64,000 nucleotides of DNA from Psammoneis japonica (GCA_008632985.1 QPGO01000003.1:310001-374000), one strand, 5' to 3'. Shown: positions 2,649-53,000, counted from the first letter of the stretch. Program-made: numbers and translations. The notes: generated from the letters alone by a model not told the origin.

Positions 2649-3103
2649 TCTCGCTCAAGTGTGTCAACAGCAGAGATGCTGAGAATTTCTCTTGCACTTT
2701 TGCCAGCTGGCGTGCTTCCATTTCTGCTTATTTCTCATCATGAATGCTGATGCAGTCCCCACCAGTGAGGAGGAGAGAGATTTGAACTTGGAGAGAAAAA
2801 AGGGTGCTTGCACAGGATTCTACCGCAGGTCTACATTGCACCCGTGGCTGACTGCAAAGGGGGGCCAATTTCGCTCGCGCGAAAGCCCATCATACCGTAG
2901 TTATTGAATTCTTCGGACACATATACAAAAATGAAGACGTGCGATTTTTTTTGGAATTTTAGTAGCCGACCACCAAGTTTCTACATACCAAACCCTGTAC
3001 GAGTCATTCCGTACGTACGTGTTCGGCATTGGCGCCGTAGTGTGGTCCTGCACTCTGCAACCGATGAACCATGAACCCGCCACACAAGCCAACCCCAAAC
3101 ACC

Positions 3104-20849: not shown

Positions 20850-22229
20850 GTTGGATTGTGCACTGGCGGTGGGCAAGAAATTGACAGCATCGATGTTGAC
20901 TGAGGTCATCAATGAGAGTGTTTGGCACATCGCAAGTTCGTGATCTTCGATCATGAACTCGCCATGGGAGGAGATTGCATGAAATTGGTTCTGCAGGAGT
21001 TGAGGAGCGTGGCGTCTTCACCGGAGAAGTTCTGGGAAGAATGCAAAGAGGTGTTCAGGACCAAACTCAACCGAAAGAGGAACAATGTGCAGGACAACAT
21101 TGGGAGGAGAATGACAGGCAAGCAGATGTGTGCGTGCCGGTGATTGTGTTGGAGGCGATTGTCTGACGGGATGAGTGTCTCTTCCTTTGCTGTTGTCTGT
21201 GCAGTTGCTGCTTTAGAGGGATCGCTGGTGGCTTGCGAAGACTTGATAAAGGGAAGAAATGACAAGGGACGCGTTCCAGCCCTAGGTGGGACTCCGTGTG
21301 ACATTGGGCCCGTAGAATTCTACGTGCGAGCTCCGTAGTACGAGAATTTAATTGATGGATATATTTATCTTCAACATCAAATAAACGGCCAAGTTTGTGG
21401 TACAATTATGCCTCTTACCACTCGACGTTTTTGCAAATGCGCCTGCCCTACGCGATTCTTAAGACATTATAGAATCGCGCTGTAACAAAAAATGTCAAAA
21501 GTTCTTGGACGGATCGCTCAATAAGTGTACCGTAAAATGACACAAAATATAAAAAAATCACGTAGAAATCTACGTGCGCGACATACGACGAGATTCAAAA
21601 AACTGTCGATGTCACAGTTCAGTGGTGCGAGGTCCCACCTAGACCTGGAACGCGTCAAGGACACATGTGCGTGGTTCTTGGAAACTGTGGTGCCGACGGT
21701 GGTGGGACAAGCGCAGTTTGGCAGAAGCACAACCGACATGCTTCAGGAACGGCTTTCGGTTTCGTCGGAGGCGTTTGCTCTGCCAGTGCACTTGAACCAC
21801 TGCAACAAGGTGAAAGACACGGCAGAGAAATTGGAAAAGGAAGAAAATGTTGCAAGGAGAAGAAAGCCAACTGTGAAAGATGCTGCTCCTGCAAAGCACA
21901 CAGCGCAGGCGGCCGGGGAATTGGCAAAGAGGAGCCAAGGATGGAGCAAGGAGGGGATCAAGAAGCACAATGATCCACATCAGTGGGTGGTGAAAGACAG
22001 AGAGAACAACCAGGGATTCGGTGCATGGTTCAAGGAGAGAAGGCGAGAGAAGACAAACTTGTCTCAGGAGGAAAACAAGAAATGCAAAAGAGAGGAAAAA
22101 AGAAAGGAGAGAGAGGAAGGATGGGCGGTGCCAATGGGAGAGGACCTGCCATTGCAGGCGGTGGCTGCAGGCAACGGAGCGGCAGCAAATGCCACAATGG
22201 CCACCAACCAAACTGGTGTGTGGACGTAA
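20850..22229 (+). pseudogene. Transposon-associated accessory ORF (SxEAFAL...KYT...GWSxEG type), interrupted by an intron and a MITE
   Basis: KFVIFDHEL..EKFWEECKEVFRTKLNRKRNNVQ, then a probable intron donor mutated to GCAAGC (about 21118). Removing the MITE joins DLIKGRNDK|DTCAWFLETVVPTVVG..SVSSEAFAL..KHT..GWSKEGIKKHN..VVKDR in frame. Confidence 0.6.
21268..21656. mobile_element. MITE (389 bp), TIR GACGCGTTCCAG..CTAGGTGGGAC, 4-bp TSD AAGG
   Basis: Left end gacgcgttccagccctaggtgggac, right end gtcccacctagacctggaacgcgtc; AAGG at 21264-21267 and 21657-21660. Excision restores the host reading frame. TA-rich. Confidence 0.9.
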
Positions 22230-23381
22230 TTTGAAACAAAAAACAAAATCCAGACAAGTGAAAATTAAAAAAAACATCATGCGACATGGTTTAGATGCAA
22301 TGACGTGTGGCAATTGGGAATTTGGATTTGAAAACGGCACAGCAAAGAGATAAAATGTAGGACGAGTTGGCAGAAAAGGAGGGTGGATTGTGAGCAGCAA
22401 CATTGTTTGTGTCAAAAGAACGAGAAACCCAAAATGTTGATTGGGGTGCAGGTCTGCATCATGTGAAAGGAATGATCACACTTAAAAGTGAGAAGCGATT
22501 TGGGTTTTGGAAGCTTGCAAACTTGTGCAGTTCTCACATTGCACTCAAGGAGAGAATTGGCTCACAAGTTGACAACAATCTGGCATTAAAGTCAAGAAAT
22601 GCCCAGATTGTGGCAGACGGTCAGACCCAGATTGTTGGCGTCCCAGATGTGGAAGGCAAAAAACCTTTTCAACGCAGCTGCACCTGGGCTCAGCAGCACC
22701 AAAGAACATGTTTTCAATTTTTATCCAAGTGCTTCTGTTCCATCCTTTTCCATTGTGTGGGAGCTTTGTGGCATCCTGCGCACACTCCCGCTGAATGACA
22801 TGATCGCACTCTTGGCGTTGGGGCGGCAGCGGTTTGAGCGTTGGTGAGAACGACTGCAGACTGCACAAAGTTCAAGATTTTTGCTGCACTTTTTGCTGTG
22901 CAACAAATTGACAACCCCCACCTGAACAGGCTTGTTTGCAGTCAGGGCCAGAAGAAAAACACGCAGCGGCACGTTTCTTTTTTGTGAAACAGCGGGAAGG
23001 CCTGGCGCTGGCGGCTTTTGAAGATTTCTTGTTGGCCCGCTCTTGTCACTTTGGTCACTTCTCACATTGTGACATGCAGTGAATGTGGTGACAAGAATTT
23101 CAACATCAGAGCAGAGTGCGCCATGCTTTGTCAAAAGCTCCCCAAAGTTGAAGCACCTCAGCACCGTTGCAGCGGGTGTTGGCCACGTCAGAGCCAAAGA
23201 GAGATGGGTGCGCAATTTTTCTCTGGAGAGGAGCATCAGAGCCAGCTGCTGCAGAGCTGCTTCTGTTGAGTCAAACAGACATGAAAAACATCAAGAACTT
23301 TGTGTTGTCATTCTTGTTGCTTTGCCATCAAATTTCTGCACACCAACGCATGTGCGCGCGTGCGAGCAGCACAGTTGTTGC

Positions 23382-26300
23382 CACTCTGCACTCCCGGCTT
23401 GGGAGGTCTGCAATTGGCACGGGAAGAAGAGGAAGAGAAAGACCTCCCACGGATCGTTGCATTTTTCAGTGCTGAGCTGAACTGGCCAGTTGGCAAAAAT
23501 CAAAAAGCGGAGAATGACTTGCAGACCAATTTTTTGCACCAGCCTCTACACATTTTTCTCGTGGACACCATGGTGCTGTTGCGTCGTTTGCACCGTCGTC
23601 GTCGCGTCTTTTTGTGGGGTGAGTCATGCATGAGATTCATGTTCTTTGTCCATGTCATGTGCAAGCGTTGGCCCAGTCTCGACAAATGCCGTGCGTGTCA
23701 CAAAATGTGTCGTCGACTGAAGTGGTGTGATGATTCGTTTTTTTTGTCATCCTTTGACTTTGTTTCTTTTGTTTTACCTTCTTTTTTGGTTGGTGCTCCA
23801 ATGTGCAGCATTTTGTTGTTAACACACAAGCATGAGCAATGGATGACAGAGCATGAGTCGAGTTGTCACCCTGGCAACATGCGTTTGTGGTCGTCACATG
23901 GTCTGGTGGCATGTCCGTTCTTTGTTTTGTGACTCGTCATTCCTTTGACTTCTTTCGCTCTTGTGGTGTCAGCTCTTGCCCCTTGTTTTGCCTCATCTTT
24001 TGATGTGTCAACAATGTTGGACAGAGGATTGAAATTGAAGTCTTTCAAGTTGATGCAACACTCCTCTTTGTTGCATCTGGATTTGGAATGCCTGGAAACG
24101 ATGCTTGACCAACCCGAGCATGCTGAGACTCGGGCTCGTTCTGGATTGATGGATGAGATGCTCCTTCATGTTCTTTTCCCACGTCCTGCCAAAGGTTTCA
24201 ACAGCATGTGCATCCGTTCCAAGGGATGCCAGACCGACCAAATCATTGCCTGCAGGATGTTCTTGCACCGAGTTCTTTAAAGGCAGCATGCGAAAGGTTC
24301 TTTTCGGTGTGGAGCTGGTTGTTGGAAGGGAAGCACAACATGCTTTTGGACAAATGTCATTTGTGCTTGTGTCTGCTTTTGGCAAGTGCCTTCTGGAAGC
24401 TTTTCCAAGAAGCATCTGATTTCTGATTGGCACTTGGGTGATCCGTTCTTGTTGGCTCTCCAAGAACACTCAACCATTTGTCTTGTCTGCTTCATTTTGG
24501 ATTCCCAGCCTTTTGAAACAATTGTCTGGGAGCCTTGGGCGATCGCATGATTGTGGAATCATGTCATTTCAACAAGAATGGCGAAATGCACCCAGCGGCC
24601 TGCTCCATTGTCACGCTCAATGAAGACGGAAAGGTGGGGATCCGCACGCAGCAAATTTGATGGCTGCTGCTTCTGCAAAGTCAGCTCAGAAGCAGTTTTG
24701 ACACTTGAAGATTCTCTCCCTTGGCAGCCACATTTTGCTCCTGTGATTTGTCGCTTTTGTGTGAACCCCGTTGCATGGAAGTTGACTGAATCCTGTTCAG
24801 TGCTGCACAACAAACGATGATGCATTGGCGCCATGGTGAGCATCGGGGAGCGATGCATCGTGAGGTGCTTTGTGCGAGTGCCAAGGCTGCACAGAATTTA
24901 ATGTGGCACGTAGAAATTGCGCAGAAAAATTTGCTGGCCAGACTGAAAAGTGCAACGCTCCGTGGGAGTGCACTCTGCACTCCCGGCTTGGGAGGTCTGC
25001 AATTGGTGCGGGAAGAAGAGGAAGAGAAAGACCTCCCACGGATCGTCACATTTTTCAGCACTGAGCCAATCTGGCCAGTTGGCAAAAATCAAAAAGCGGA
25101 GAACGACTTGCAGACCAATTTTTTGTGCCAGCCTCTGTGCATTTTTTTCGTGGACACCATGGTGCTGTTGCGTCGTTTGCACCGTCGTCGTTGCGTCTTT
25201 TTGTGGGGTGAGTCATGCACGAGATTCATGTTCTTTGTCCATGTCATGTGCAAGCATTGGCCCAGTCTCGACAAATGCCGTGCGTGTTACAAAATGTGTC
25301 GTCGACTGAAGTGGTGTGATGGACGTGTTCCAGTCCCAGGTGACGCACAAAACGACAATCGGATTTTGAATATAATTTATGTATATTTTAGTGTATATAG
25401 CATTTTAATAAAAATACTTAGACGGATTGACTGTTATAGGCTTCTAGAGTATGAACATTTAAATAGTTTTTTGAGGGGTATTCAAATCCTCATGGGATAT
25501 GTATCATAAACTTCCTCAGTAGACTCAATGCTGATTGTACGTCAGTAGATTTATACTGAGATTTTTTTGTAGGTAGAAAACCTACCAAGTAGCATCGTAG
25601 AAAGATATATTTAGGTAACATCCAAATAACGGCAATATTTTCGCCGAAAATCATCCGTTGTGTTACGAATCTTTTAACGCAATGAAAAACATAGATAGCA
25701 CAATAACAATGATATTGCAACACTCACACGAGTCTTGTTAGTGTTGCAAAACATTTATATTTGTATAAATCTATACTTTTGATGGTGAAAGTTCGATCGT
25801 AAGTTAGGGACCGCGCAAAAATCGCGCAAATGTCGTTTTTGTGCACGATTTGGTTCACGTGCGGCTGGAACACGTCGATGATTCGTTTTTTTTGTCATCC
25901 TTTGACTTTGTTTCTTTCATTTTACCTTCTTTTTTGGTCAGTGCTCCAATGTGCAGCATTTTGTCATTAACACACAAGCATGAGCAATGGATGACAGAGC
26001 ATGAGTCGAGTTGTCACCCTGGCAATGTGCGTTTGTGGTCGTCACATTGTCTGGTGGCATGTTCGTTCTTTGTTTTGTGGCTCGTCGTTCCTTTGACTTC
26101 TTTCGCTCTTGTGGTGTCAGCTCTTGCCCCTCATTTTGCCTCATCTTTCGACACGTCAATGGCGTTGGACAGAGGATTGAAATTGAAGTCTTTCAAGTTG
26201 ATGCAACACTCCTCTTTGTTGCATCTGGATTTGGAATGCCTGGAAACAATGCTCAACCAACCCGAGCGCACTGAGACTCGGGCTCACTCTGGATTGATGG

Positions 26301-27119
26301 ACAAGATGCTCCTTCATGTTCTTTTCCCATGTCCTGCCAAAGGTTTCGACAGCACATGTGTCCATTCCAAGGGATGCCAGACCGACCAAATCATTGCCTG
26401 CAGGATGTTCTTGTGCCGAGTTCTTTAAAGGCAGCACACCAAAGGTTCTTTTCGGTGTGGAGCTGGCCACCGGAAGGGAAGCACAACATGCTTTTGGACA
26501 AATTTCATTTGTGCTTGTGTCTGCTTTTGGCAAGTGCCTTCTGGAAGCTTTTCCAAGAAGCATCTGATCTCTGATTGGCACTTGGGCAATCCATTCTTGT
26601 TGGCTCTCCAAGAACACTCAACCATTTGTCTTGTCTGCTTCACCCTGGATTCCCAGCCTTTTGAAAACAATTGTCTGGGAGCCTTGGGCGATCGCATGAT
26701 TGTGGAATCATGTCATTTCAACAAGAATGGCGAAATGCACCTGGCAGCCTGCTCCATTGTCGTGCTCAATGAAGACGGAAAGGTGGGGATCCGCACGCAG
26801 CAAATTTGATGGCCGCTGCTTCTGCAAAGTCAGCTCAGAAGCAGTTTTGACACTTGAAGATTCTCTCCCCCAGCAGTTACATTTTACTCCTGTGATTTGT
26901 CGCTTTTATATGAACCCCGTTGTATGGAAGTTGACTAAATCCTGTTCAGTGCTGTACAACAAACGACAATGCATCGGTGCCATGGTGAGCATCGGGGAGC
27001 GATACATCGTGAGGTGCTTTGTACGAGTACCAAGGCTACGTAGAATTTAACGTGGCACGTAGAAATTGCGTAGAAAAATTTGCTGGCCAGACTGAAAAGT
27101 GCAACGCTCCGTGGGAGTG
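23382..27119. repeat. Tandem duplication of an approximately 1.59-kb TIR-bounded element (copy A 23382-24970; copy B 24971-27119 including a MITE)
   Basis: The copies align along their length. Imperfect inverted ends ctcccacggatcgttgcatttttcagt (23444) and actgaaaagtgcaacgctccgtgggag; junction microhomology cactctgc. Confidence 0.9.
25322..25876. mobile_element. MITE (555 bp), TIR GACGTGTTCCAG, 4-bp TSD GATG
   Basis: gacgtgttccag...ctggaacacgtc with GATG at 25318-25321 and 25877-25880. The empty site (gtggtgtGATGattcg) is present in the paralogous copy at about 23722-23737. AT- and TA-rich interior. Confidence 0.93.
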
Positions 27120-27256
27120 GCCACTCTGCTGTACAGCTGTTGTAGAGAGTGCTGCATTGCACGCATGTAGGCCCGCCCTACCCTCTACTCTAGAGCTAGC
27201 AGGGCCATGCATGCCGTGCTCGCTTGCGTTGCAAGCGGCGCAACGACGTGAGCCAA

Positions 27257-27537: not shown

Positions 27538-28626
27538 ATGTGTAAGGAAACCAACGAAATTGAAACCGGCTCCCCTGTCGACAAGACTCCCCAAGACGAT
27601 GCCACCGCCGCTAGTAGCCGTGCTTCTTCAGCTGTCACGGTCATGCCCAACGTTGCTCTCAAGAGGATGAAACTTCTCATGGCTTTCCTCGGAGCCTGTA
27701 CCATCGGACTCCTCGTCTCTACCATCTACCTCGCTGTTGACCGTGACAGTGAAAAGAACAAGAACAAGGAGGTCGAGGTTTCTACAGTTCAAGGACCCAA
27801 CCCTTGCCAGGGCAAGCGTCCCGATTTGCCCAATGTTGCGTGTATCATTGACGAAATGACCCAAACGGGCGAACAATCCGGAGCCAATGTCACAAAGGGC
27901 TACAACGGAGACAGGGAAACCGATGCCGAGCCCATCACTACTTCTTACTTTGAGGCCGGCTTGTGCCCCGTCAATGTTCACTGGCATCTTGGTGCCGAGC
28001 ACTACTCCGCTGGCGAGTTTGACGAGATCGGCACCGGTCCCCTCGATTTCCACGAAGGCCGTCAGGGATTCCAGTGCAGGTACTACGACGAGAACGACCC
28101 CAAGTTTAACACTCCCTTCAACTGGCAGCACTGCATTGGTATGATGGTTGGACAAACCTATGAAGTTCACTGGCCTCACTCTGCTGCCGGTGCCTGCGGT
28201 ACTCCCTTCCAGTACCAGACTCCCTTCTACGATGGTGTCTTTTGCCGCGACGGCGTTATCACTGACACTGCTCAGCAGATTGGTGTCCAATCCCAAGTCT
28301 TTACCATTGTCAACGACGAGGACTACTACTACCCCGACCTCTTCCGTGGTATGATTGTCGATGGCGAGATGGGAACAGACATTGCTAAGTACACTGGTTC
28401 CACCACTGGTACGGCCCGTAACAATGAGATTTGCTCCCCCTTTACTCCCATCACCTGGCAGGTGGACCGCAAGTGCCACCTCATTTCTGCCTCGAGTTTT
28501 GACAAAATGTGCAAGGACATGAGGGCACAGGCCGACAACATGAACGACGACCTTTATGCTCACGGATCTCGGGAGCTTGTCGATGACGAGCACGCCGCAA
28601 ACAACCAGCAGCTCCGTCGTGCCTAA
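27538..28626 (+). CDS. Delta-class carbonic anhydrase with an N-terminal transmembrane anchor
   Basis: GLCPVNVHWHLGAEHYSAGEF, YEVHWPHSAAGAC, YTGSTTG and ITWQVDRKCHLISASSFDKMC; hydrophobic helix LLMAFLGACTIGLLVSTIYLAV; strong codon bias. Confidence 0.92.
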   Translation: MCKETNEIETGSPVDKTPQDDATAASSRASSAVTVMPNVALKRMKLLMAFLGACTIGLLVSTIYLAVDRDSEKNKNKEVEVSTVQGPNPCQGKRPDLPNVACIIDEMTQTGEQSGANVTKGYNGDRETDAEPITTSYFEAGLCPVNVHWHLGAEHYSAGEFDEIGTGPLDFHEGRQGFQCRYYDENDPKFNTPFNWQHCIGMMVGQTYEVHWPHSAAGACGTPFQYQTPFYDGVFCRDGVITDTAQQIGVQSQVFTIVNDEDYYYPDLFRGMIVDGEMGTDIAKYTGSTTGTARNNEICSPFTPITWQVDRKCHLISASSFDKMCKDMRAQADNMNDDLYAHGSRELVDDEHAANNQQLRRA

Positions 28627-33258: not shown

Positions 33259-33781
33259 CTAGATACGATAGAAGTTGCGCTGATAGCACTTTTACATTTT
33301 AGATTAGCAATTTAGTTAACATCTTCTTGACTACTAGACAGTGTAAGCCCCTCTAAGGTATCTCTACTGCATGTTTCAACCAGGTTTAGGTGAAGTCCAC
33401 TGCGATCAGACAATCCTTGCCGACGAAAGAGCTCAACTTGCTTTGTAAATCGAAAGAATTGCACGTTTCAAGGTGAATGAGGGTTGCAATGACTTTCTTT
33501 ATCACCGGCTATTTCAAAAGTGCCGTTTTTGACTGTCAAAAAATGGTGACATTGCACATTGCTATGCAACAACGGCCAGACACGTCACATCAGATTCTGC
33601 AAGAGTACCGGTAGATACTATCGCATCGTCAAAAGTTCTAATGTCTCATCAGTTCATCAGCAGGCTTACTATTTACGTTTAGTGGTGCTTTTTTTTGCTC
33701 TGCCTTTAGTCGTACCGGCGGTTCAAGCTCCAATTCTTTACTGTTCGTATTCAATACGATTTACGCACTGTTTTGTTAGGT

Positions 33782-35188
33782 ATGGGTTGGACGGAAGCCC
33801 TGAAGAAACGCAAAAAATCGCCTACAACGACAGTAGATCAGGCGAGGAAATGCGTTTACAATCATCGTGCAGCTCAAGTCGCCGTGACGTGGATGCAGAG
33901 GCGCATCTCGGAGAAGCAGCAAGATTCGTCCAAGTTTTCTTGCTCTGCCCAAGAATTACAGCTGTGTGAATTTAAAAAATGCGTATTAGAACAAGAATTG
34001 GAGCTCCGCAAGACGGTCCTGAACACGACGGCTGATGAAAGAGTTGAAATTCTGTTTCAAGTGGTGGACGTGAACAAGAACGGCTATGTGAGCTGCAACG
34101 AACTGAGCCTGTGCCTATTGAAGATCGATGGCGAAAAGACTCAATCTCAAGCCTTCTCAGCAGCACAACTGTCTATTTCAGCCTTTGATTCTTCTCGTGA
34201 TGGACGATTGGATTGCGGTGAATTCAAAGTGTTTCTGACCAACATTGCGAGCCAGGTTGGATGCACCGTACAAGAGCTCGCACAGTTTCTAATCTTTCGA
34301 ATTGTGACTAGCGATGATGGTCCAACTGTAGTGGCAGAGACCATTACACATGGAGATTTGACAAGCTGGGTTCAGGGTCCATACGATGATGATAAGCTTG
34401 TTCAGGCTCGAATCTTGATTTTGTTCGAGGCGTTGGACTGGGACAAGAACGGCTTGGTTTACTTTCACGAGGTTGTAAAGTGCATGTATCGTGTAGCAAA
34501 AGACATGGACAAGCAATACCGACAAATTCTCTTTTAGATCCCAGGGCGAGAAGGGCAACAAGATAGGACGCTGGATCTGAGTCAGTTTGCGTTGTTTCTC
34601 TGTAATGTGGTTGCAGCCAGTCCGGCTCATGTAGGCATACACGAAGTTTGCAACTCCATTACGTTGCTTATCTGCGGCGGTGGTAATTGCTCATGTTCGA
34701 AAGTCAACTACGAAGATATTTTCGATCAGTATGGCCTCTATGATACAAGAGAAGAAACGACTGATCAACAGACCAAAGTTCCAATATCAACGCTGGATCA
34801 AGGCCGCATGACGCGACTGTTTGACTTGTGGGATCTCAATCACAATGGCTACATTGAATTCAACGAATTCTTTCTCGGGTTGCGCAAGTTCCACGAGACA
34901 AAGGACGTGGATACTACCTTTATGGAAACCGCCACAGCCATGTCACGGTTCGACGTTAATGAAAAGAACGGAAAGCTGGACAGAATTGAATTCTCTGCAG
35001 CTCTCGCTCAATTTGCGCAAGAGGCCGCAGGTGTTGATTTGTCAGGGTTAATTGACTACATGGTTATCCATAGCGCTCTCAAGGACAACAAAGAGGCCGA
35101 ACGCGACTATGTCAGAAGCTTGCGGACTCAAACGGACATACAAAACAACCTTGGCGCGTTGTGGCCATGGGGGAGGCGGCTAGAGTAA
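33782..35188 (+). CDS. Multi-EF-hand calcium-binding protein with one in-frame TAG (34535-34537)
   Basis: EF loops DVNKNGYVSCNE, DSSRDGRLDCGE, DWDKNGLVYFHE, DLNHNGYIEFNE and DVNEKNGKLDRIE. ORFs 33773-34537 and 34592-35188 are in the same frame. Confidence 0.75.
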
Positions 35189-35897: not shown

Positions 35898-36131
35898 AGT
35901 CACGACTCAACGTCATTCTGGTCGCATCTCACGACTACAACCCAGACTCAGATTTTCTCTTCGAAATAATTGGCTCATCACAAAATTGATTCAAACAGAA
36001 GCAACGACATTCGTCATAATTTTTAGACAACGACTTTGAACAAGCGTCTGTTTACCTCTGTTGCTGTTCACATTGCTGCCAACCTCCGAGGTCTTGTCCA
36101 TCCTACCCAGCTGTGGGACTGCATCTCGACT
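35898..36131 (+). repeat. 5' LTR (AGTC...GACT)
   Basis: 227/234 identical to 42905-43138. Confidence 0.97.
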
Positions 36132-36293
36132 GGTCACAGAGACCAATTTGCGCGTTGACGAGAGCTCCTGACCGAGTCATCGTCACGGACACTTTCGGTT
36201 TTTGATTTTGAAGCAAACCCGGGAAATGGCTGAGTCTCTCTCGCTTCTCTCGTCTTCACTCTAACAAGAACCTCTCATGCTGCACTCTTTGTC

Positions 36294-39200
36294 ATGGCTG
36301 CCATCGATCCGGCTGTTCTGGCGAAGGCATTTGCCGACGCAATGGCCGCCAACGCCGCAGCGACCGCTCCTCCGGCTCCAACCAAGCCGTTACGTGGTGG
36401 AATTCACCCAACCCACGGGGTTTACATTGGTGGTTCCAAACTCAACAACAACTGCGAACAATCCAATGACAGAACCTGCCGACTCGCCTCTCAGCGCCGT
36501 CATCCCAAGGCTCTCGACTCGATGGAACGATCTCTCCGCGATCAACAAGCTTCCGCAATGACTTCCAAGTTCAACGGTCGACTTGAGATTTTGGACGGTC
36601 CCATCAACGAGCTTGACAAGGACCATTTCGTCAAGACCATTTGAGATCTGGCAGAAGCCCACGGTCAGCAGATGTTCCACCATGTCAAGAACAGCGACGA
36701 CAAGGTTCAACATGTCTTCGACCATCTTCACGAGTTTACTGTGACCGATCTCGTGAACGAGTGCACGGTTGGGAAAGCAGCTGCCAATGACACCAAGTGC
36801 GATGAGATCGAGCTCGACGATGTCGGGCTCTCTCAACTTCTCGTTCACTCAAGAATCACTGGTGCCTTTCGCGAGAAAATCGAGACCAAGTTCAACCATC
36901 TCTCGGACTGCCAAGACTGCCCTGGATCTGTTCTGTTCATGATGGCTCTCGATGCTTGCAATGCCAGCGCTCTGACGGACATTGAGACGGCCAAGAAGCA
37001 GCTAGAAGACCTCAGTTTGGTTGGCTGTCCCGGCGAGGATTGCACGGATTTTGCTGCCGAAGCTCTTCGCATCGTAAAAATTGTGCAGACCGACCACGCG
37101 CTTCTGGCGAACACAAGCTCCAAGCCACTCCACAAGATCTCCTCTGCGTCCTCTGAATGCTTCAATCGGCGAGTCTACAACAAGCTCGACGACGTCAAGG
37201 CTGTGGAACGCAAGTGCCGCCTCAAGAATCCTGCTGACATCGTGTCCGACAGCGATTGCAAAACGCTCGGACCGGTCGGCATCATTGCATGGATTCAGGA
37301 GCAACACAACGAACTCGTGAAGGACGGGGAGTGGCCTGCGTTGGTCGCCAAGCTACCCGAGAGCAATCTTTCGACTGCGGATGACCCTGGGAAGACGAAG
37401 CACTGTTGTGGTTGCGGTCTCGAGGGGTGCACCAAGAAGACGTGCCCGAAGTGCAACGCCAAACCGCCGCGCGACGATCCTCCTCCCAATCCGCCGCCTG
37501 CAGACGACCCTTCCAAGAAGAAGAGGCGACCCATCGCTGCCTGGCGTGCTAAATTTGACGGAGAAACGAAGAAGGACAAGAATGGCAAGGAATGGAAGTG
37601 GTGTGCCACGTGCACGGCGAAGGGTGCCGACAAACCTGGAATCTGCCAGAAGCACTCTACCGCGGAACACACCGACGACCGCAGGCGCCCTCCCAAGGAG
37701 ACCCCAGCCGGGAATTTGTCTTCTGTTGCTGATCCGGACAGTGGCGTGCCCATGGGTCCGCCCGCTCAGACTGCCAAGGAACCAGAGGGAGACGAATCCG
37801 ACCCCAACGAGTTGGTTTTCACGGGAATGTGGTGCGCGGCTACGGATGCCGTCACCGACCCGGAGTTCTGTTCCGCCCCTGTTGCTGCTGCATTCATTGT
37901 TCCTCCGGCTTCTTCGGCGAGCGGGAGAGCAATGCAGTCATTGGCACTGAGGTGGTTTGCAACGAAACGAGCCCACCTGCACTCACCTCAGTCGTGGATC
38001 CAGTCGTGTCTCCCATCGTGGTTGAGACTGTCACTCCCGAAGACGCCGATGACTTCTACGAATGCTCCGACGCTTTCTCCACCTTTGAAAACGAACCACC
38101 GGCTATTGAGTTGTTTCTGGCCTCGAAGCTGTGCTCCATCAAGCATCCAGATGAGTTCTTTGACGCTCCCGCACATTTGATGGACATGCTGTCAGACGAC
38201 ACAAAGTTAGATCTCATCCTTGAACATGACGTACACTTTGAAGACGCATGCTGCGACTTGCCTCCGTGTGTCACATGTCGTGGCTTCGATTTCTACGATC
38301 CAGAGGTCCTGGATGCGGATGATTGTCACGAGGACGTCGAAGACGAGCCCACTTTGCGTCGCTCACTTTTGGGACGAGTCAAGCTGTTCACATTCTGGCT
38401 CGCCGCCATGTTTTGGGAAATGGTGCTGCATCTTTGCTTTGCTCCGATCCCTTGCATCCCTCGAGCTCTACGCCGCCAGCGCAAACTCCCAACTTTGCAC
38501 GGGTTTCCAGCCTCCTGGATGGTCCTGTCCGTTGCAGTGATGGTGTGGTCAGCAGTTTACGCCGGTCAACAGCCCGAGCATCCATTCTCGAACGTGCCAA
38601 GTCGTTTTTCGACCGCCAGCTCTCAAGTCTGCCACATTGTGGAAGAGCCAGATGACCGGATAGTGTTGGATGCGGGGTCACTGTTCGAATGTCACAGGAT
38701 CAAAGGCACGCAAGCACTCACCGAGTTTGTCGCGCGCCATCCATCACACGCACTGAGCACTCGTCTCAAGGCCTGCTGGGAGAGCCTGGAAGTCGCTGAA
38801 CGGTCGGATGCGACAGACGAATCAGCCTTCTTTGACACCTGTGAGGAACTGGAACCTCTCGACGACCAGAAGTGTTTCTTTGACGCTCTTGAGGACTTCA
38901 GCCCGGATTTCTTCCAGTTTGACGAGCTCTGTCTGCCGAATCATGTCGTGGACACTGCCCATTTTCAAGATCCTGTGGAACCATTGGAGGAAGCAAGTGT
39001 TAGACCAGTCGTCTGCAATGCCTCCACCATCCACCTGCTCACCGGACAATCACAAGCCGACCTCCTTGCATCCGATCCGCAGGCACTCATCGGTCTGTCA
39101 GACGAGGCTCTCACGGTCATCATGGATGCTGGTGCCACGTTAGCTGTTGCCCCCGACAAAGATGATTTTACGGGGCCTGTGACTGTTCCCAAGAAACCCT

Positions 39201-42200
39201 TGCAGATCAATGGGATTGCCAACGGTCTTACCATCCAGGGCACCGGTCCGGTTGCGTGGGTGTTCACAACGCTGAGTGGGGCTCCCATCCAACTGAACAC
39301 CATGGCATGCTACGTCCCTGGAGCCCGTCAGCGCCTGCCATCGCCTCAACGCCTCTTCAACGAAGAAAAGGGGGTACGTGGGAAGTGCGAGGGCGATGAA
39401 ACCACTTTCCGTTTACATGTTGACGGGACAGGCAAGTTGGTCGTGCCACATCATCCATCAAGCCACTTGCCCATTGCGTCAATGACCAAGGGCATCTCTG
39501 CCGCTCCTCAAGTGAACCTGCAGATCCTTGGCGAGGAGAATCAAAACCTCACGGCAGGCCAAAAGCTTCTTCTCGAAATGCACGCCCGTTTTGGCCATTT
39601 GAACTTTGGTCGCGTCCAAGCACTTCTCCGCGCAGTTCCGTTCCTGTCGAACCGTTTCAAGTCCGCAGCGAAGTGTGACCACCCAAGATGCGAGGCATGC
39701 GAATGTGCTAAAGGTCACAGACGCTCCCTTGGATCTGCTCACAAGTCGACAGTCCCTGAACGCGACGGGGCCCTTCGAGCTGACCATCTTTGACCGGGTC
39801 AGGCTGTCAGCGTTGATCATTTTGAGTCGCGCCTTTTAGGCCGCACCTTTGACTCACATGGCAAAGCCACGTCCAAGCAATTCAAGGGCGGTTGTGTCTT
39901 TGTCGACCACGCCTCTGGCCATGTCCAGGTCGAGCACCAACTGGGTTTCTCCGCTGTTGAGACGACACGAGCGAAGCAAGCGTTTGAGAAACATGCTTTG
40001 GACCACGGGGTCATCGTCCAAGAATTTCTTACCGACAGTGGCGCTTTCAAGGCCAACGCTTTTGTGCAACACACACGAGACCATGAACAACGTCTCCGTT
40101 TCTGTGGAACCAACGCCCATCATCAGAACGGCGTCGCAGAGCGGGGCATCCGAAGCATCTCCAACATGGTGAGAGCGATGTTGCTTCATGCATCAATCCA
40201 CTGGAAGGGGGGAATTGACAGCTCCCCATGGCCCATGGCAGTTTCTTGTGCCACGCACATCTACAATGTCACCCCAAATTCCAAAGGACATTGCCCAGCG
40301 GACATTTTCACCGGTTCGACAGTGCCAAGACATCGGTTGCGCGACATTCACACATGGGGATGTCCAGCGTACGCACTTGATCCGACCCTCGCTTCCGGGA
40401 AGAAACTCCCGCGTTGGGAGCCTCGCACTCGTCGCGCTTTGTTCGTGGGACTCAGCACCATCCATTCCAGTGAGGTTCCTTTGGTCCTCAATCTTCAAAC
40501 TGGAAGTGTTGCTCCTCAGTGTCATGTGGTCTTTGATGATCTCTTCACTGCCACACCATCAATCGAGAGGGAGACGGATCCACCTGATCACTGGGAACAC
40601 TTGTGCCTCAACCAATCGATGTGCATCCCTCTGGAGAAGGATCAAGCAGTTCATTTGCACGATGAGTGGCTTGCCCCTCCAGAGCGTCAACGTAAAGAGC
40701 GAGAACTGGCCAGAGCAACACGCATTCGCGGCCATTTTGAGCCTGCTCCATCGATTGCTGTGCCGGATTCACCCACTTCTCGCGACGACGTTGCCGATCG
40801 AGTCGCACCTGCGACTCAGCAGCCAACGCCACCAGTCCCATCTACGACTCAAACTCCTGCAGACTCTATGGACTCTGTGCCAATTCAGCCACCTGAACCT
40901 CAAGTCAGCAACGAACTTCCGCCACCCGAAGTGCCGATGGAACCAACAGCTCCTCCCCCAGTCGAGACACCTCCTGTGATGAATCCAGAGGGAGTGCCAG
41001 GGCTGCGATGGTCTTCACGGTCAACCAAGGGACAGCTCAACTCTGCCAAGTTTGTAGATGAGGTGCACTTCAGCTCCGTCAAGGAAATGCCACTGCTGAT
41101 CAGACACGAGGCTCAGCCAGCGTATCTGGCGACTCTCGAGATGGATTTGGACAGTGGCACCATCAACATCGGCGATCCACGAGCCTGCGCAGCTAGCAAG
41201 AAAACCAAGGACCCTGACATGCCTTCGTCACACAATGCTCTGAAAGGTCCGGACGCCGACGAATGGATTGAGGCGATGAAAATTGAAGTCAACGCACTCA
41301 CACATCGTCGAGCCTGGAAAGCAGTCGAGCATCAGCCGCGTGTGAATGCACTTCCAGGCACATGGGCACTGAAGCTCAAGAGACTCCCGGATGGAACCCC
41401 TCTCAAGCATGAGGCCCGATGCTGCGTCCGCGGTGATTTACAGAAAGAAGGAGTCGACCACTTCGAAACCTGCACGCCGGTTGTGCAATGGTCCAGCACC
41501 CGACTCATGCTCACTGCGGCATTAAAGGAGGGATGGACTGCACGTCAGGTGGACTGTGCCACAGCCTTTTGCCAAGCTGACATCGCCGAGGAAGTTCACA
41601 TGACACCGCTGAAGGGATTTGCGCCAAGGTCGGGACTCAACATGGTTCTCAAACTTTTGAAAGGACTGTGCGGCCTAAAACAGTCTCCCAAGGGCTTCTG
41701 CGAGAAGTTGCGAGCTGGTTTAACCGAGCGCGGATGGGTGCCTTCAGCCATAGATCCCTGTTTGTATTTCAAAGAGGGCATGATGTGTGTGGTCCACGTC
41801 GACGACACCGTTTTTGCTGGAGCTTCAGCTGAAGCTCTAGAAGCCGAAATTCGCAAGTTAGAAGTCTCCGACGACAAACATCGCCACGCATTTGAACTTA
41901 GAGACAAAGGAGAAGTCGGCAACTTTCTCGGTGTCAAGATCGAAAAGCTCTCCAAGGGTCGATTTCTACTCACTCAACCCGGTCTAATTGACAAGGTCCT
42001 GCGTGCCGCACAGATGCAGGATTGCAATGGAGCATCTGCTCCAGCTCTACCTGTGGCCATTGGTGCCGACACGGACGGCCTGCCTTTTGATGAACCCTGC
42101 GATTGTCGCTCAGTTGTTGGAATGTTGATGCACTTGGCAGCGAACAGCCGGCCAGACATTGCACATGCCACACATCAAGCAGCTCGATTCTCGTTTGCAC

Positions 42201-42883
42201 CCCGAGCGTCCCACGCTGCTGCAGTGAAGCGGATGCTCCGACACCTCAAAGCAACTGCTGCTGAAGGTCTCATTCTCAAGCCTGCGCAAGATCATCGAGT
42301 TGATTGTTACGTCGATTCTGACTTCGCGGGGTTGTTTGGTGTGGAAGATGGTCAAGACCCAGTTTCTGTCAAGTCCAGGACTGGACACCTTGTCCACTGC
42401 GCCGGCTGCCCGCTTGTCTGGGTGTCCAAGCTGCAGACTCTTGCAGCATTGTCGACTGTGGAAGCGGAACATGTCGCACTTTCTCAAGCTGTGCGCGATC
42501 TCATCCCTGTTCGTGAAGTTCTCAAGGAGCTCAACCACCACGTGTTCGGAAAGTCTGACCGCCAAAACCCCATCAAGACTCACTCCAAGGCTTTTGAGCT
42601 CACAACCCAAGGCACCGATGACTCGCCTGTAGCGCAGAATGTCCCACCTGCATCCGTTGTGTGCGAAGATAACTCCGCGTGCCTCAAGTTCGCACGCATG
42701 CCCAAGTTGTCTCCGAGAACCAAACACATCGGCATCCCGCACCACTGGTTTAGGACTAAAGTCGAACAATTGGAGATCGACATCCAACCTGTCAGCACTC
42801 TAGAGCAACTAGCCGATCAGTTCACGAAGGGACTACGGACCGATGCGTTCCGTACGGCTAGAAAGGCTCTTATGGGCTGGTAA
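36294..42883 (+). pseudogene. Copia gag-pol polyprotein with 2 TGA stops, a frameshift near 37900 and widespread Tyr>Cys/His changes
   Basis: Zn knuckle CCGCGLEGCTKKTC, protease MDAGAT, integrase HARFGH..CEAC / VSVDHFES / TDSGAF / QNGVAERGIR, RT LCGLKQSP and HVDD, RNase H YVDSDFAG / EAEH / EDNSAC / LADQFTKGL. Confidence 0.95.
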
Positions 42884-42904
42884 GCTCTCTCGGTTGAGAG
42901 GGAG

Positions 42905-43138
42905 AGTCACGACTCAACGTCATTCTGGTCGCATCTCACGACTACAACCCAGACTCAGATTTTCTCTTCGAAATAATTAGCTCATCACAAAATTGATTCA
43001 AACAGAAGCAACGACATTCGTCATAATTTTTAGACAACGACTTTGAACAAGCGTCTGTTTACCTCTGTTGCTATTCATATTGCTACCAACCTCCGAGGTC
43101 TTATCCATCCTACCCAGCTGTAGGACTGTATCTCGACT
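42905..43138 (+). repeat. 3' LTR (AGTC...GACT)
   Basis: Follows the polypurine tract and is followed by the TSD GTACA. Confidence 0.97.
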
Positions 43139-43189: not shown

Positions 43190-44617
43190 TTATTTTAATT
43201 CAGATACATGCTTGTACAAATTCTTGACAAACACGGGTGCATCCTCATCCAAGACCAACTGCAATTCCTCCAACAAGGCCTTTGTTGGTTTCTTGTCGAC
43301 AACGTGTTGCAAAATAAATTCAATTAAAGTGGCTTCCTCTTCTCCCATGTACTCGGCAATTTGCGCCGCCACAAATGCCTTGACAGTGCCAATGTTGGAT
43401 TCCGAAATGCCCCCAAACAACACGCCCTCTGCCAATGGATCTGAAACAACAACTGGAGTAGTAGTAGCAGTAGTGAGATCTAATTTTGGCTTTTTGCGCG
43501 GTGGGCCTTCGGGTTGTTGTGGCGTTGGCGGCGGGCTGTTCATCGGCAACATCCTTGGCTTGTTCGGCTACTTCTGGATTGTCCTTGGTCATCCAGGCTG
43601 GTAGATTGGAAACACCACGTCGACCCGATTCCTTGGGCACAGTGCCGTCATTTGATGGAGCAACGGTTGTTGTTTCCGGCACTGGTGGAGGCGGCGGTGG
43701 CGGAGGCGCGTTGCGTTCTTGCTCGACTCTGGCTCGTGCGTCCTCCAAGGCCTTGTCTAATTTCTCTTTTACCAAAAGCACGCGTTGTTTCTTTTGAGAG
43801 GATTGAATGTTTTCCAAGTTTTTGCGAAAAAGTGCCACGGCTGCCAAAACAGCGGGTGCATTGAGGGGATCCTCGTCGGGGTCATAGGCACCTCCAGCAG
43901 CGGCCGCCACTTTGGTGGCGTCCAATTTCAAATCGGACGCTTCAGCAGAAGGAGCAGAGGAGGAATCCACGGTGGTTGCTACAATCCCATTGGCCGAGAT
44001 CAAACCCGGCTCGAGTTTTTCTACCAAGATTTGTAGAGTTTCATCATCAATCAGCGGTGGAGGTAGCGATACGGTGGGGTCGGTCGGAACCAAGTGTGCT
44101 CGGAGATTTGAATCAGAATTGCTTTTCGAGAGCTTTTGCAGCGCACACGTTAGTTTGAGAGCTCCATCGGGACGAGCCATGATGACTAGAGCCAATCGTG
44201 GTGATTTGTTCTTGTTGTGGTTTTCCTTATCCTTACTGTCTGCCTTTTCTGTATCGGTGCCGTTTGTTTTTTCTTTTTCTTTCTCGGCAGAAATTACAGT
44301 AACATCCTGAACAAGTCCGCACGGTTGAATCCAGTCTCGCAGCTTTTGGGTGTCCAAATGCAGCGGGATATTGATCAATAAGACCGTATTGGATGGTCGC
44401 GGTTTGCTCATAATGACGACGGGAGGTCCCATGAGTGGAGCACCGATCGGTGGCGGTGGTACTATCATGCTAGGCGGCGGAACTCCCACGGGCGGAATAC
44501 CAGCTGCTGCGCCAGGTGGAGGAATCATGGGCATGGCCACACCACTGGTGGTGGAGGAGGAGGCAGGCCTATTGGCACTGCTCCCGGTGGAGGCGGCGGT
44601 GGAGGTGGAGCCGACAT
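43190..44617 (-). CDS. Proline-rich RRM-like plus C-terminal PWI-domain RNA-processing protein, with two apparent 1-nt frameshifts
   Basis: MSAPPPPPPPP start (44617), RRM-like NTVLLINIP..., GRRGVSNLPAWMT and a PWI-like VKAFVAAQIAEYMGEEEATLIEFIL...VLDEDAPVFVKNLY. Frame changes occur at about 44545 and 43515. Confidence 0.75.
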
Positions 44618-50027: not shown

Positions 50028-53000
50028 ACTCCATGGGGCAAGGGCACCTCTTCAGGATGTTGACACTGGGCAGTCACACACAGACCATGGCAGATCTGGT
50101 CATGGGCGCCCATGCATCTGGTCAACTTCAATGGGAGTGAGAACGTTCCAACTGAGACCGTTCGAGAGATTGAAGAGCTTCATGGCAAATCTTTGCAGGC
50201 TGAAAAGCCGCAACATTGAAAAAGGAAATGACAAACTTTGTGCGGTCAATCATTTTCTGCTCCACGCAAAACATGAAATTGAAAACATAAATTCGATTGA
50301 GTTGCCTTTGACTTTGGCGGCAATGTGAGCGGGAGATGATGAGAAGGAGTTCAACAAATGCCTGTCTCAGATGGCCACACTTGTGATTGCCACCCAACGA
50401 CATCTTGAAAAATCCAAGAAGCAAATGGGACATGGTTCTTGATTGAGGGCAATGCCAGGAGACACATCAAGGACTCTCTGCATCTTGGAGGCCGCATCAT
50501 GCCCCCCGTCTCGTGTCCCCGGTTGTCCCCACAAGATTTTTGTCAAAAATCCAGAATTTGAAATCCAGCTGCATCGGGGACACAAGGCATGCCCAGTGTG
50601 CCCTCACAGCACCTCTGCAGCCAAAATGAGATGTCAGTGCTGCCTTCAGTTGACACTGCACAGTCTCCATGAGATGCCACAAGCTGCTGCAACAACACAT
50701 CATGGGTGAATTTGTTGGTCTTGAAGTGTGGCAAAGTTCTCAGTGCCAGATCATCATGAGAATTTTTGCTCCTCTTGCTGGTCAAGAAAGTCATGACACA
50801 AGTCTCTTTTCATCCGAAGGTGCTCAGGCAATGACAGAGTGTTTTGAGATGGGACCAAGGCAATTCATTGTGTGCCATCAGCTGCATCATTTGTGCTTTG
50901 TTATCTTGGTGCCATGTGCTGGCTTTCATGGCTCAAATCGTTTGTTCATTGCACTGAGAAGAAAGCCTGAGCACCCATCATGTTAGAAGCAAAGATGCCA
51001 GAGTGGAGAAAAAGCTGCCCCATGTCACATTGAGCAGTGTTGGCTTTCTGCACTTTCAGCAGGTGTCATGCATATGTGCACAGGTGATGACACAAGGAAG
51101 AGATTTGGCTGCTTTTGTTTTGCCATGACAGCGGACTTTCTAAGATGCCAGTGCTGCTTTTTGAATGGCGTGGAGCTCTTTTCAGTGCTGCAAGCTGAGC
51201 AGAAGAGCTCTGTGGTCACAGATGCCAAGGCACCAATTTTTTCACTTGCAAGCTGGGCATCCTCTGCATGGGTGCTCTTCATCTGTTCTTGAGGATTTTC
51301 TCAATGCTGACATGGGCAACAAAGCACATCAGAGGGGGGGCTCACTTCAGGTCCTGTGCTGTTCCTGTGTTTTTTTTTTGTTCAATGAGTGCCAACCCAA
51401 GTGCAGTTTGGCCAACCCCTGCTGTTTCAATGGAACCCTGTGTGATTCTCCCACAGGACCTGCAACAACCCTGCAGGAGCTGCAGCATTCACGCAGGTGT
51501 TCTGACACTTTAATTTGGCTGATTGCCCATGGCTGAGACATGTGGTGCACCCCCAATTTTTCAATTCCTGCCTTTGGCCTCCTGCTTTTGGACTCTCATC
51601 TTGCCATTGTCTCTCCCCCTGCTCCAACCTCATGCAACAGAAACAAAAATTTCAACTTGTGCACGTCTCTTGGCACACATGCCTTGCAAAAATTTTGCTT
51701 TTCTGCTGTCTTTTTCTTGTGCAATTTTTTGTTGTTGCACAACAGCTTCCTTCTTGGACTTTCGCTGCCCCCCAAAACCAACTTTAAATCTGCTGCAGCA
51801 CACTGCATTTGATGGGTCCTCCATCTCCATTTGTTCTGTCACTGCGCAATCTTCCTTGCTCCAGAAAATTGCTTTCCATCACCCAGTTTTTCTTCACATC
51901 TTTTGGGGCTGCCCTTTTTTTGCCATTGTGAGTTTTCAAACCTGCAGCTCACTGAAAGAGCAACTGGTGCACTGCTGCTGATGCACCAGGGGTGTTGGGA
52001 CATCTTGATCACGAGTGTTGCAGCAGGGAACCCAAATCCATTGGGGAAAAGATGTTTTGTTTTGACTCCTGGCATGGCAGATGGCTCTTTGGCTTTTCAA
52101 GCAAGTCTGTGGTGTGACAGATCTGCCCCCAGTGGTGGCATCATCAGCCCCAACAAATTTGACCCTGATGCATGGTTTTGGTGTGCAGAGAGGACCAACA
52201 ATTGCGTGGCTGTGCCAGGGCTCATTCCATGGCCCCCATTTTTGTTGGGGTTGCAGCTGGTGGTTGTTTTGAAATGGTCCTGCCAGCTGATGACTGACAA
52301 TTCTGCCAGGGTTCATCCCATGCCCCCCCCACATCAGTCATCAGTGCTGGTCTCAGTGTGGATGAGACAATTGCATGGCTGCTGCTGGCGGGGCATGTCT
52401 GGTGATGGCCCCTGTTTTTTTGTCCACCCCACCCAGGCAAAAAACAAACAAATCACTCACAGTGGCTCACAACTGGCACAGCAGGAAACTCATGGCTGAT
52501 GCAACAAAGTGGTGCCTGCACGTGTGTTTCCTTTGATGGGGACAAAAAGCCATTGTCGTCAGTGCACTGTGTTGTTGGCAGCCACACTTGTGCATGGAGC
52601 GCAGTCGCCGTCAAGTCACCATCATGGTCTTTGGCAGTGATTTTCTCACCCCAAACAAGTGCCAAGAAACCTGCAAAACTGATGAACCATGATGTGGTTT
52701 GGGAGGACATGCATGGAAACACACCATGTGCAATTTTCTCCAGAAAAATGAGGCCAGGGTTGGGGTTGGGGTCACGACAGAAGCATGCATTGTGTCAAAC
52801 AGACATCACTGTATCGATTTATGTAAAGTTATCATAGACACCTGATCATCTTTAACTTTTTTCCCATCGTTCCTCGGGGGTTTTGGCGCACCGCTAACAC
52901 GGCGCCGATGCAGGACACGCACGTACGGAAAGACTCGTACAGACTTTCGTATGTAGAAACTTGGTAGTCATTTACTAAAATTCCAAAAAAAGTCGCACTT

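What the first reader, a model, noticed from the sequence alone, without database searches (positions are those of the whole stretch)
24690..27119. Mutation fades near genes: a positional gradient in a tandem duplication and in the 3' LTR
Seen: tandem copies A and B are both almost TA-free in their interiors. In the last ~200 bp before the delta-CA promoter, copy B (26870-27075) retains about 13 TA sites that are TG/CA in copy A (ttttactc/ttttgctc, ttttatatg/ttttgtgtg, tgtatgg/tgcatgg, gactaaat/gactgaat, gtacgagtacc/gtgcgagtgcc, ctacgtag/ctgcacag). Likewise, 6 of the 7 LTR differences fall in the LTR half that is internal in the 5' copy but adjacent to the PWI gene in the 3' copy. Inference: targeting depends on chromatin position (heterochromatin core versus protected edge) rather than on sequence or homology alone.
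Basis: partly seen in the sequence, partly recalled or inferred. Interest (0 to 1): 0.8.

Follow-up and report, generated by a model that had tools for sequence, protein, structure and literature searches.

The report
TA-erasing mutator stops beside genes
In this diatom-like genome a mutation process that rewrites TA to TG or CA in transposons stops a few hundred bases short of neighbouring host genes, whichever end of the transposon faces them, which suggests that a natural DNA editor is aimed by chromosome neighbourhood rather than by sequence or copy number.

Summary
Mostly confirmed. The 'tandem duplication' is a dimer of a 1.58-kb non-autonomous DNA transposon. Copy B keeps 14 of 15 TpA sites in its gene-facing 242 bp against 3 of 59 elsewhere; copy A keeps 2 of 15 there. 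The '6 of 7' LTR count alone is chance (p=0.49), but 0 of 13 against 7 of 13 lost is not. Other copies supply the test. In the DNA-transposon family the spared end is whichever faces TA-normal, mostly genic DNA. In 29 Copia copies LTR retention follows the adjoining flank (rho 0.77, 0.58), not the opposite one (0.02, 0.15). A Copia that interrupted a single-copy gene let the loss run ~900 bp into that gene. So targeting is positional, not homology-bound; chromatin is inferred (CpG decay starts at the same edges), not measured. The edge is steep rather than a long fade, and several ends are exceptions. Same-strand A>G bystanders within ~4 nt favour an adenine deaminase. TpA hypermutation is in print only for Bigelowiella natans, without boundaries; this scan noted edges on other DNA of this genome before.

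The parts
23380..23388 (+). left 9-bp target-site duplication of the dimer
   Evidence: identical to 27120-27128
23389..24970 (+). copy A of a 1.58-kb non-autonomous TIR element (Mutator-like by its 9-bp target duplication); TA-erased end to end, both flanks TA-poor
24971..24977 (+). 7-nt remnant of the target duplication between A and B
24978..27119 (+). copy B of the same element, interrupted by a younger insert
25322..25876 (.). young 555-bp TIR element with 4-bp target duplication, 51 of 52 TA sites kept; does not shield the TA sites of B beside it
26878..27119 (.). spared cuff of copy B: 14 of 15 TA sites kept; inner edge 26874-26878, 662 bp upstream of the delta-CA start codon
27120..27537 (+). 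right target duplication and upstream region of the delta-CA gene, normal TA and CG content
27538..28626 (+). delta carbonic anhydrase gene, one of at least 8 paralogs
   Evidence: PF10563 E 2e-48
33710..35188 (+). EF-hand protein gene whose stop lies about 710 bp from the 5' LTR
35898..36131 (+). 5' LTR of the Copia element; 5 of the outer 6 TA sites kept, 1 of the inner 7
35898..43138 (+). Copia retrotransposon, 5-bp target duplication, interior keeps 18% of its TA sites
42801..43138 (.). spared cuff at the 3' end: whole 3' LTR (42905-43138, 13 of 13 kept) plus about 100 bp of pol tail; edge 337-348 bp from the end
43190..44617 (-). PWI-domain gene, stop codon about 50 bp from the 3' LTR; two frame breaks in the assembled sequence, unresolved
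   Evidence: PF01480 E 2e-10

Best explanation
A TpA-specific A>G mutator acts on chromosomal DNA after insertion, on either strand, and its reach is a positional domain, most likely silenced chromatin. The domain covers repeats and whatever dead DNA lies among them; where a repeat abuts working host DNA the domain ends about 160-460 bp inside the repeat, leaving a spared cuff such as the end of copy B and the 3' LTR. Shown: direction and post-insertion timing; dependence on the adjoining flank; independence of which end of the element it is; spread into single-copy DNA; CpG decay beginning at the same edges; short same-strand patches. Inferred: that the domain is 5mC/H3K9me/H3K27me3 chromatin (about 0.7), that open chromatin of the neighbour holds it back by one to three nucleosomes (0.55), and that the enzyme is a DNA adenine deaminase working in a few-base window (0.6).
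For: B end 14/15 vs 3/59 and vs 2/15 in A. Reciprocal copies: L003, L004/L006 (one insertion site), L012, L014 keep 7-14 of 14 sites at the LEFT end, next to TA-normal flanks, three with a start codon 94-171 bp away (GT25 and MPP6 genes by Pfam, one ORF without a hit); A, B, L005, L007, L009 keep 0-2 there. Copia: flank TA vs LTR retention rho 0.77 (n=27, p=2e-6) and 0.58 (n=23, p=0.004); opposite flank 0.02 and 0.15 (n=22); interior unrelated to flank. Spared ends: 8 of 12 and 6 of 8 with TA-normal flanks, 0 of 13 and 0 of 12 with TA-poor flanks. 186 of 259 differences in 25 LTR pairs are TA-type. Unequal target duplications of L003, L088, L089, L099, L104 differ by TA loss on a TA-poor side. 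L088 interrupts a gene found once in the assembly; its upstream half has TA o/e 0.16 (23 host ORFs: 0.30-0.65) and 5 of 9 homolog tyrosines read His/Cys against 1 kept; L103 shows the same composition pattern. TA-rich non-genic neighbours give no shelter: plastid psaA/psaB insert at L007, the 555-bp insert in B. CG o/e falls from about 1.0 to 0.47 across 10 window edges; all 6 delta-CA paralogs examined have an edge 275-660 bp upstream, CG dropping with it in 5. Non-TpA A>G singletons sit at -2 and +1 of a TpA edited on the same strand: 20 vs 9.6 and 18 vs 5.5 expected, none beside a kept TA.
Against: No chromatin, methylation or expression data were obtained; flank TA density is a stand-in, and only 11 of the 20 TA-normal Copia flanks gave a Pfam host gene within 1.3 kb. 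Six of those 20 ends fall below the sparing cut-off or nearly so: L100 3' keeps 1 of 13 beside normal DNA, L103 3', L090 5', L095 5', L100 5' and the window's own 5' LTR are weak. The five strong 3' edges all lie 337-357 bp inside although the gene is about 50-800 bp away, so element sequence helps set the edge. Pooled over 20 ends, marginal likelihood prefers a slope of scale about 80 bp to a step (-463 vs -476). Several junction TAs survive in TA-poor flanks (L084, L092, L099, L101). CpG loss in Copia differs little by flank. No enzyme is tied to the process.
Confidence: 0.68

Rival explanations
1. Element- or homology-guided targeting with an edge lag: the repeat itself is recognised (pairing or small RNA), editing starts one to two nucleosomes inside its border, and the margin fills in only where the neighbour is also a target. 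Genes play no active part.
For: Edges are stereotyped per element end: 337-357 bp at five 3' ends, 156-225 bp at nine 5' ends, whatever the gene distance. Both promoter-side and terminator-side neighbours go with sparing.
Against: Single-copy coding DNA next to L088 and L103 is erased up to 600-950 bp out; the 29.4-31.1 kb TA-free block has no copy above 81% identity, and only over short pieces; delta-CA paralogs 83-90% alike keep their TAs (selection confounds this); left-end cuffs of the DNA element vary from about 175 to 460 bp.
Confidence: 0.15
2. Differential repair: A>I damage or misincorporation occurs everywhere but is repaired in open, transcribed chromatin and fixed in silent chromatin.
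For: Predicts the same map; CpG and other changes are also a little rarer in spared ends (13 of 624 vs 34 of 736 CpG bases).
Against: TpA loss exceeds other A>G by two orders of magnitude (77% of site-copies vs 276 events at 2817 columns x 26 copies), which needs a sequence-specific agent anyway; cuffs keep about 92% while interiors are near saturation.
Confidence: 0.08
3. Purifying selection keeps TAs in transposon ends co-opted as promoter or terminator sequence.
For: Cuffs lie where regulatory DNA would; three LTR sites are kept even without a TA-normal flank.
Against: It needs nearly every TA constrained over 160-460 bp in about 19 independent insertions, on both sides of genes and up to 800 bp from them; B loses a CpG inside its cuff.
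Confidence: 0.05
4. Gene conversion from a young copy, or a chimeric or mis-polished assembly, made B's end.
For: The public contigs did not give a piece that bridges the junction by the tool's standard; the assembly carries small indel differences from them.
Against: No copy above 95% or with a TA-rich right end among 22 matches; B's end shares a 3-bp deletion with A and L003 only; the pattern recurs at both ends of two families and in target duplications.
Confidence: 0.04

Closest known systems
TpA hypermutation of integrated NCLDV and virophage DNA in Bigelowiella natans (Mettrop et al., bioRxiv 10.64898/2026.01.13.699255; parts 1-4 of 5 read; supplements not seen)
   Same: TpA>TpG/CpA on both strands, confined to regions of foreign or silent DNA, including single-copy DNA; deaminase proposed but not shown.
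   Different: Different lineage; here near saturation over 64% of the window, with CpG decay alongside. The paper's main text has no 'boundar', 'edge', 'flank', 'gradient' or 'diatom' and describes no flank rule or bystander patches. It measures a rate; I have only footprints.
Repeat-induced point mutation of Neurospora, RID and DIM-5/HP1/DIM-2 pathways (bioRxiv 10.1101/2021.04.05.438447, passages)
   Same: Irreversible mutation of repeats; one branch runs through H3K9me heterochromatin and hits adjacent single-copy DNA.
   Different: RIP is C>T and triggered by homology; RID-type RIP leaks about 150 bp out of the repeat, whereas here editing usually stops 160-460 bp inside it beside genes.
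Gene-proximal LTR hypomethylation of mouse ETn/IAP elements (Rebollo et al. 2012, PMC3491417, abstract)
   Same: The two LTRs of one element differ, the one near the gene escaping the repressive mark; euchromatin spreading into the element is proposed.
   Different: A reversible methyl mark near start sites, not a permanent A>G record; here terminator-side ends are spared too.
DNMT5 CG methylation of transposons in Phaeodactylum tricornutum (PMC9998398, passages)
   Same: Diatom TE regions carry 5mC with H3K27me3/H3K9me2/3: the likely substrate domain.
   Different: No TpA mutation in the passages seen; marks not measured in this genome.

Membership tests
B. natans-type TpA hypermutation | A>G at TpA on both strands dominates the spectrum | tested here: met
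   186 of 259 LTR-pair differences TA-type, 45 CpG, 28 other; outcomes TG 3578, CA 2847
B. natans-type TpA hypermutation | confined to foreign or silent regions, host genes spared | tested here: met
   window segments TA 0.1-0.8% vs 3.5-4.5% in genic blocks; 23 host ORFs normal
B. natans-type TpA hypermutation | single-copy DNA can be hit | tested here: met
   L088 flank: 1 match in the assembly, Tyr>His/Cys against homologs
B. natans-type TpA hypermutation | de novo rate about 1000-fold over background, on in some lines only | not testable with these tools
   needs mutation-accumulation lines
B. natans-type TpA hypermutation | ADAT2-like deaminase as agent | tested here: inconclusive
   a TadA/ADAT2-like ORF exists (L172) but the family rings in 12 of 14 control genomes; an AID/APOBEC-like ORF also exists (L180); neither tied to the process
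Fungal RIP | C>T transitions that create TpA | tested here: not met
   TpA is lost, direction fixed by LTR pairs and target duplications
Fungal RIP | triggered by sequence duplication irrespective of position | tested here: not met
   the same repeat site is kept or lost by flank; single-copy DNA hit
Fungal RIP | premeiotic timing, RID/DIM-2 dependence | not testable with these tools
   no life-cycle or mutant data
Polymerase-eta A:T mutagenesis (recalled, no call) | WA motif with TA only a few-fold above AA | tested here: not met
   AA-context events 109 at 819 columns x 26 copies (rare variants only) against 77% loss at TA
Mutator-like elements (the 1.58-kb repeat; features recalled) | 9-bp target-site duplication | tested here: met
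   dimer, L003 (one TA>TG change), L004/L006, L008, L012; imperfect in L005
Mutator-like elements (the 1.58-kb repeat; features recalled) | long terminal inverted repeats and a MURA-type transposase partner | tested here: inconclusive
   only a 7-bp perfect inverted end seen; two ORFs gave no transposase hit; no partner sought

The most novel reading that the evidence does not exclude
A eukaryote uses a DNA adenine deaminase, recruited by a heterochromatin reader, as a genome defence: it edits TpA in few-base single-strand windows throughout silenced domains regardless of homology, is stopped by the open chromatin of working genes at nucleosome-scale borders, and swallows host genes once an insertion kills them. 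The TA map is then a fossil chromatin map, and the enzyme a natural adenine base editor acting on double-stranded chromosomal DNA.
Probability: 0.4. Interest if true: 0.9.

Novelty: new variant of a known kind. Interest (0 to 1): 0.7.

Why it matters
The one published case leaves open how the TpA mutator finds its targets. Two transposon families here act as natural reporter insertions and answer part of that: the same sequence is edited or spared according to its neighbour, and single-copy DNA is edited when it falls inside a domain. That rules out a pure sequence or pure homology rule and gives base-level predictions (borders at 26876 and 42795; 160-460 bp cuffs) that one methylome or H3K9me/H3K27me3 map would confirm or reject. 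The bystander patches narrow the enzyme class. A natural DNA adenine editor with a domain reader would matter for genome-defence evolution, for dating LTR elements in such genomes (most LTR differences are mutator-made) and for base-editor biology.

Tried and rejected
Read support: one DNA run held 0.77 of the words, probably the assembly's own sample; no RNA holder listed. Its contigs gave no verdict on chimerism: the piece 27094-27264 matches without a difference but has only 26 letters on the element side; 491 pieces were not shown. The '6 of 7' statistic was rejected as evidence. The 555-bp family could not test flank dependence: 28 of 30 copies had both flanks at or under 1.7 TA per 100 bp, and the 30 were the best matches to a TA-rich query (rho -0.2 to -0.3, not significant). 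A clean 'step, not slope' claim failed on pooled ends; it holds for B only against slopes of 80 bp or wider. Long strand-coordinated tracts were not seen: concordance 0.60 within 5 bp, 0.56 at 6-10 bp, 0.50-0.52 beyond. Sequence context (TA followed by a purine on both strands is kept more) does not explain B, since the same sites are lost in other copies. Age does not: A and B resolved 36 of 56 jointly lost sites alike, near unrelated pairs, against 38 of 43 for the same-site pair L004/L006. No empty-site allele was found for L088 or L103. No tRNA or Rfam RNA marks the edges. No chromatin-reader domain was detected by Pfam on the five deaminase ORFs scanned; the fusion noted in e1-7617956 was not located. 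Literature searches for a diatom case or a boundary rule: searches found only the B. natans preprint; one search returned nothing; subscription journals and bioRxiv supplements are not covered.

Full report
Setting. The window is G000:C4:310001-374000. A delta carbonic anhydrase family, a plastid psaA/psaB insert elsewhere and the gene content point to a diatom-like alga (inference). A two-state segmentation puts 64% of the window in TA-poor blocks (0.1-0.8 TA per 100 bp) between genic blocks (3.5-4.5).

Anatomy. Self-alignment gives two repeats, 23382-23732/24971-25321 and 23729-24978/25877-27129. They are one 1.58-kb element twice over: A 23389-24970 and B 24978-27119, with a 9-bp duplication on either side of the pair, a 7-nt remnant of it between, and a 555-bp younger element with a 4-bp duplication inside B. 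The element has 34 matches in the assembly; I aligned the 12 copies at 83% identity or more. Whether the dimer arose by double insertion or by recombination at the target duplication is not settled. A and B mostly differ by TG/CA swaps and resolved 36 of 56 jointly lost sites alike, so most loss came after the dimer formed.

The observation. B keeps 14 of 15 family TA sites in its last 242 bp and 3 of 59 elsewhere; A keeps 2 of those 15. The switch lies between 26874 and 26878, 662 bp upstream of the delta-CA start; a step fits better than logistic slopes of 80 bp or more (4.4 log units), but not clearly better than 40 bp (2.7). In the Copia, all 7 LTR differences are TA in the 3' LTR. Six in the second half is expected, because 10 of 13 sites lie there (p=0.49); 0 of 13 against 7 of 13 lost is the signal (p=0.005).

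Test 1, same element, other neighbours. If the right end were protected by its sequence, other copies would keep it: they keep 1-6 of 13-15. Instead L003, L004/L006, L012 and L014 keep 7, 11/14, 13 and 13 of 14 sites at the left end, where their flank is TA-normal; L005, L007, L009, A and B keep 0-2. L003 and L012 face the 5' ends of a GT25 and an MPP6 gene at 171 and 139 bp, L014 an unannotated ORF at 94 bp, L004/L006 an SNF2 gene further off. L007 abuts TA-rich plastid DNA and is not spared; nor are B's sites beside the 555-bp insert: TA-rich neighbours as such do not shelter, though both probably arrived late.

Test 2, Copia family. Of 41 matches I fetched 28 (the best full 5' matches; one at a contig end and the most diverged were left) and added the window's copy. 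Dropped before counts: L098 (same site as L096), L093 5' (tandem LTR), L087 and L095 3' (same flank as L082). Over 314 TA sites 23% of site-copies keep TA. LTR retention follows TA density in the adjoining 600 bp (rho 0.77, n=27; 0.58, n=23), not the opposite flank (0.02, 0.15; n=22), and interior retention follows neither. With flanks split at 2 or more against under 1 TA per 100 bp (five intermediate ends left out), a spared cuff is found at 8 of 12 and 6 of 8 ends against 0 of 13 and 0 of 12. Cuffs keep about 92% of sites and end 156-225 bp (5') or 337-357 bp (five strong 3' ends) inside; that picture is aligned on fitted edges, and pooled marginal likelihood prefers a slope of scale 80 bp. 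Eleven of the 20 TA-normal flanks carry a Pfam host gene within 1.3 kb, facing with either end. Exceptions: L100 3' (1 of 13 kept), L103 3', and weak 5' ends of L090, L095, L100 and the window's copy.

Test 3, direction, timing, homology. In 25 LTR pairs 186 of 259 differences are TA-type. Target duplications, identical at insertion, differ by TA loss on a TA-poor side in L003, L088, L089, L099 and L104, although several junction TAs survive there. L088 splits a gene that occurs once in the assembly and whose homolog P0001 covers both halves; the upstream half has TA o/e 0.16 and of 9 homolog tyrosines 3 read His, 2 Cys, 3 Phe, 1 Tyr, while the downstream half keeps 3 of 5. L103 shows TA loss 600 and 200 bp into single-copy ORF halves. 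So the domain can retreat into a repeat or run out of it. Conversion or chimerism at B is unlikely but not excluded by reads.

What marks the domain. CG o/e falls from about 1.0 to 0.47 in the first 300 bp beyond 10 TA edges of the window and to 0.1-0.2 deeper (3-4 edges). Six delta-CA paralogs each have an edge 275-660 bp upstream of the start, with CG dropping at it in five. CpG decay is the usual footprint of 5mC (established knowledge), and diatom transposon regions carry 5mC with H3K9me and H3K27me3 (PMC9998398, passages). This is indirect; in the young Copia CpG loss is only about 10% and weakly flank-dependent.

The agent. TpA loss exceeds other A>G by about two orders of magnitude, more than polymerase eta allows (recalled). 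Strands with TA followed by a pyrimidine are edited more (noted earlier in e1-7623774). New here: rare non-TpA A>G changes cluster at -2 and +1 of a TpA edited on the same strand (z 4.8 and 6.9 for singletons), fade by 4 nt and vanish beyond 5; B shows such patches at 26467-26471 and 26643-26645. That is what a deaminase in a small opened window would leave (inference; base-editor bystander behaviour recalled). Candidate ORFs exist but none is implicated.

Comparison and novelty. It works like the TpA hypermutation of B. natans and meets the three features I could test; that paper (parts 1-4 of 5 read, supplements not seen) does not treat borders. It is not RIP. The spared LTR recalls gene-proximal LTR hypomethylation in mouse (PMC3491417, abstract), and fungal copies near genes carry fewer RIP-like changes (PMC9970103, passages). 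Searches found no diatom case. Earlier notes of this scan saw edges at other loci of the genome; they are leads, not support.

Verdict. Real feature; position dependence about 0.93, chromatin as cause about 0.7, whole best explanation 0.68. New variant of a known kind; interest 0.7.

Noticed in passing
window 35898-43138 and L081-L108: The Copia family's LTRs begin AGT and end ACT, not TG...CA, with 5-bp target duplications in most full-length copies.
   Followed up: partly
Copia family, 26 copies; window 26467-26471, 26643-26645: Same-strand A>G bystanders within about 4 nt of an edited TpA; bears on the enzyme class.
   Followed up: yes
L088:8563-9450 and L103:8616-9215: Host genes split by a Copia lose TA 600-950 bp into the upstream half, more than in the downstream half; in L088 the loss stops near the start codon.
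   Followed up: partly
window 25322-25876; L051-L080: A young 555-bp TIR family (302 candidates) sits almost only in TA-poor DNA: target preference or selection. A second copy interrupts L012, and a related 430-bp island lies at 21214-21640.
   Followed up: partly
L113:5659-8878: About 3 kb of plastid psaA/psaB DNA, TA-rich and with open frames, inserted into a TA-erased element: a young substrate for watching the mutator.
   Followed up: no
window 36017-36053 and homologous sites: LTR sites 121 and 128 are kept in 9 of 13 and 9 of 12 5' LTRs even with TA-poor flanks, site 121 despite a favoured context: possibly a protein footprint at the promoter.
   Followed up: partly
L184-L188: At least 8 delta-CA paralogs; all six examined have a TA-erased block within 275-660 bp upstream.
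   Followed up: partly
L180:1060-2019 (-); L175:319-1791 (-): An AID/APOBEC-like ORF (no ring in 14 prokaryote controls) and a deaminase fused to a 2OG-Fe(II) oxygenase.
   Followed up: partly
window 43190-44617: The PWI gene has two frame breaks with no intron-like sequence; one-base gaps against public contigs elsewhere in the window suggest assembly error, not checked here.
   Followed up: partly
window 56883-57846; 2925-3038 / 52899-53012: A TA-normal element with 57-bp inverted ends, and a 114-bp inverted pair 50 kb apart.
   Followed up: no
L082, L087, L095: Three Copia copies with different left flanks share one right flank and lack the last 3 bp.
   Followed up: no
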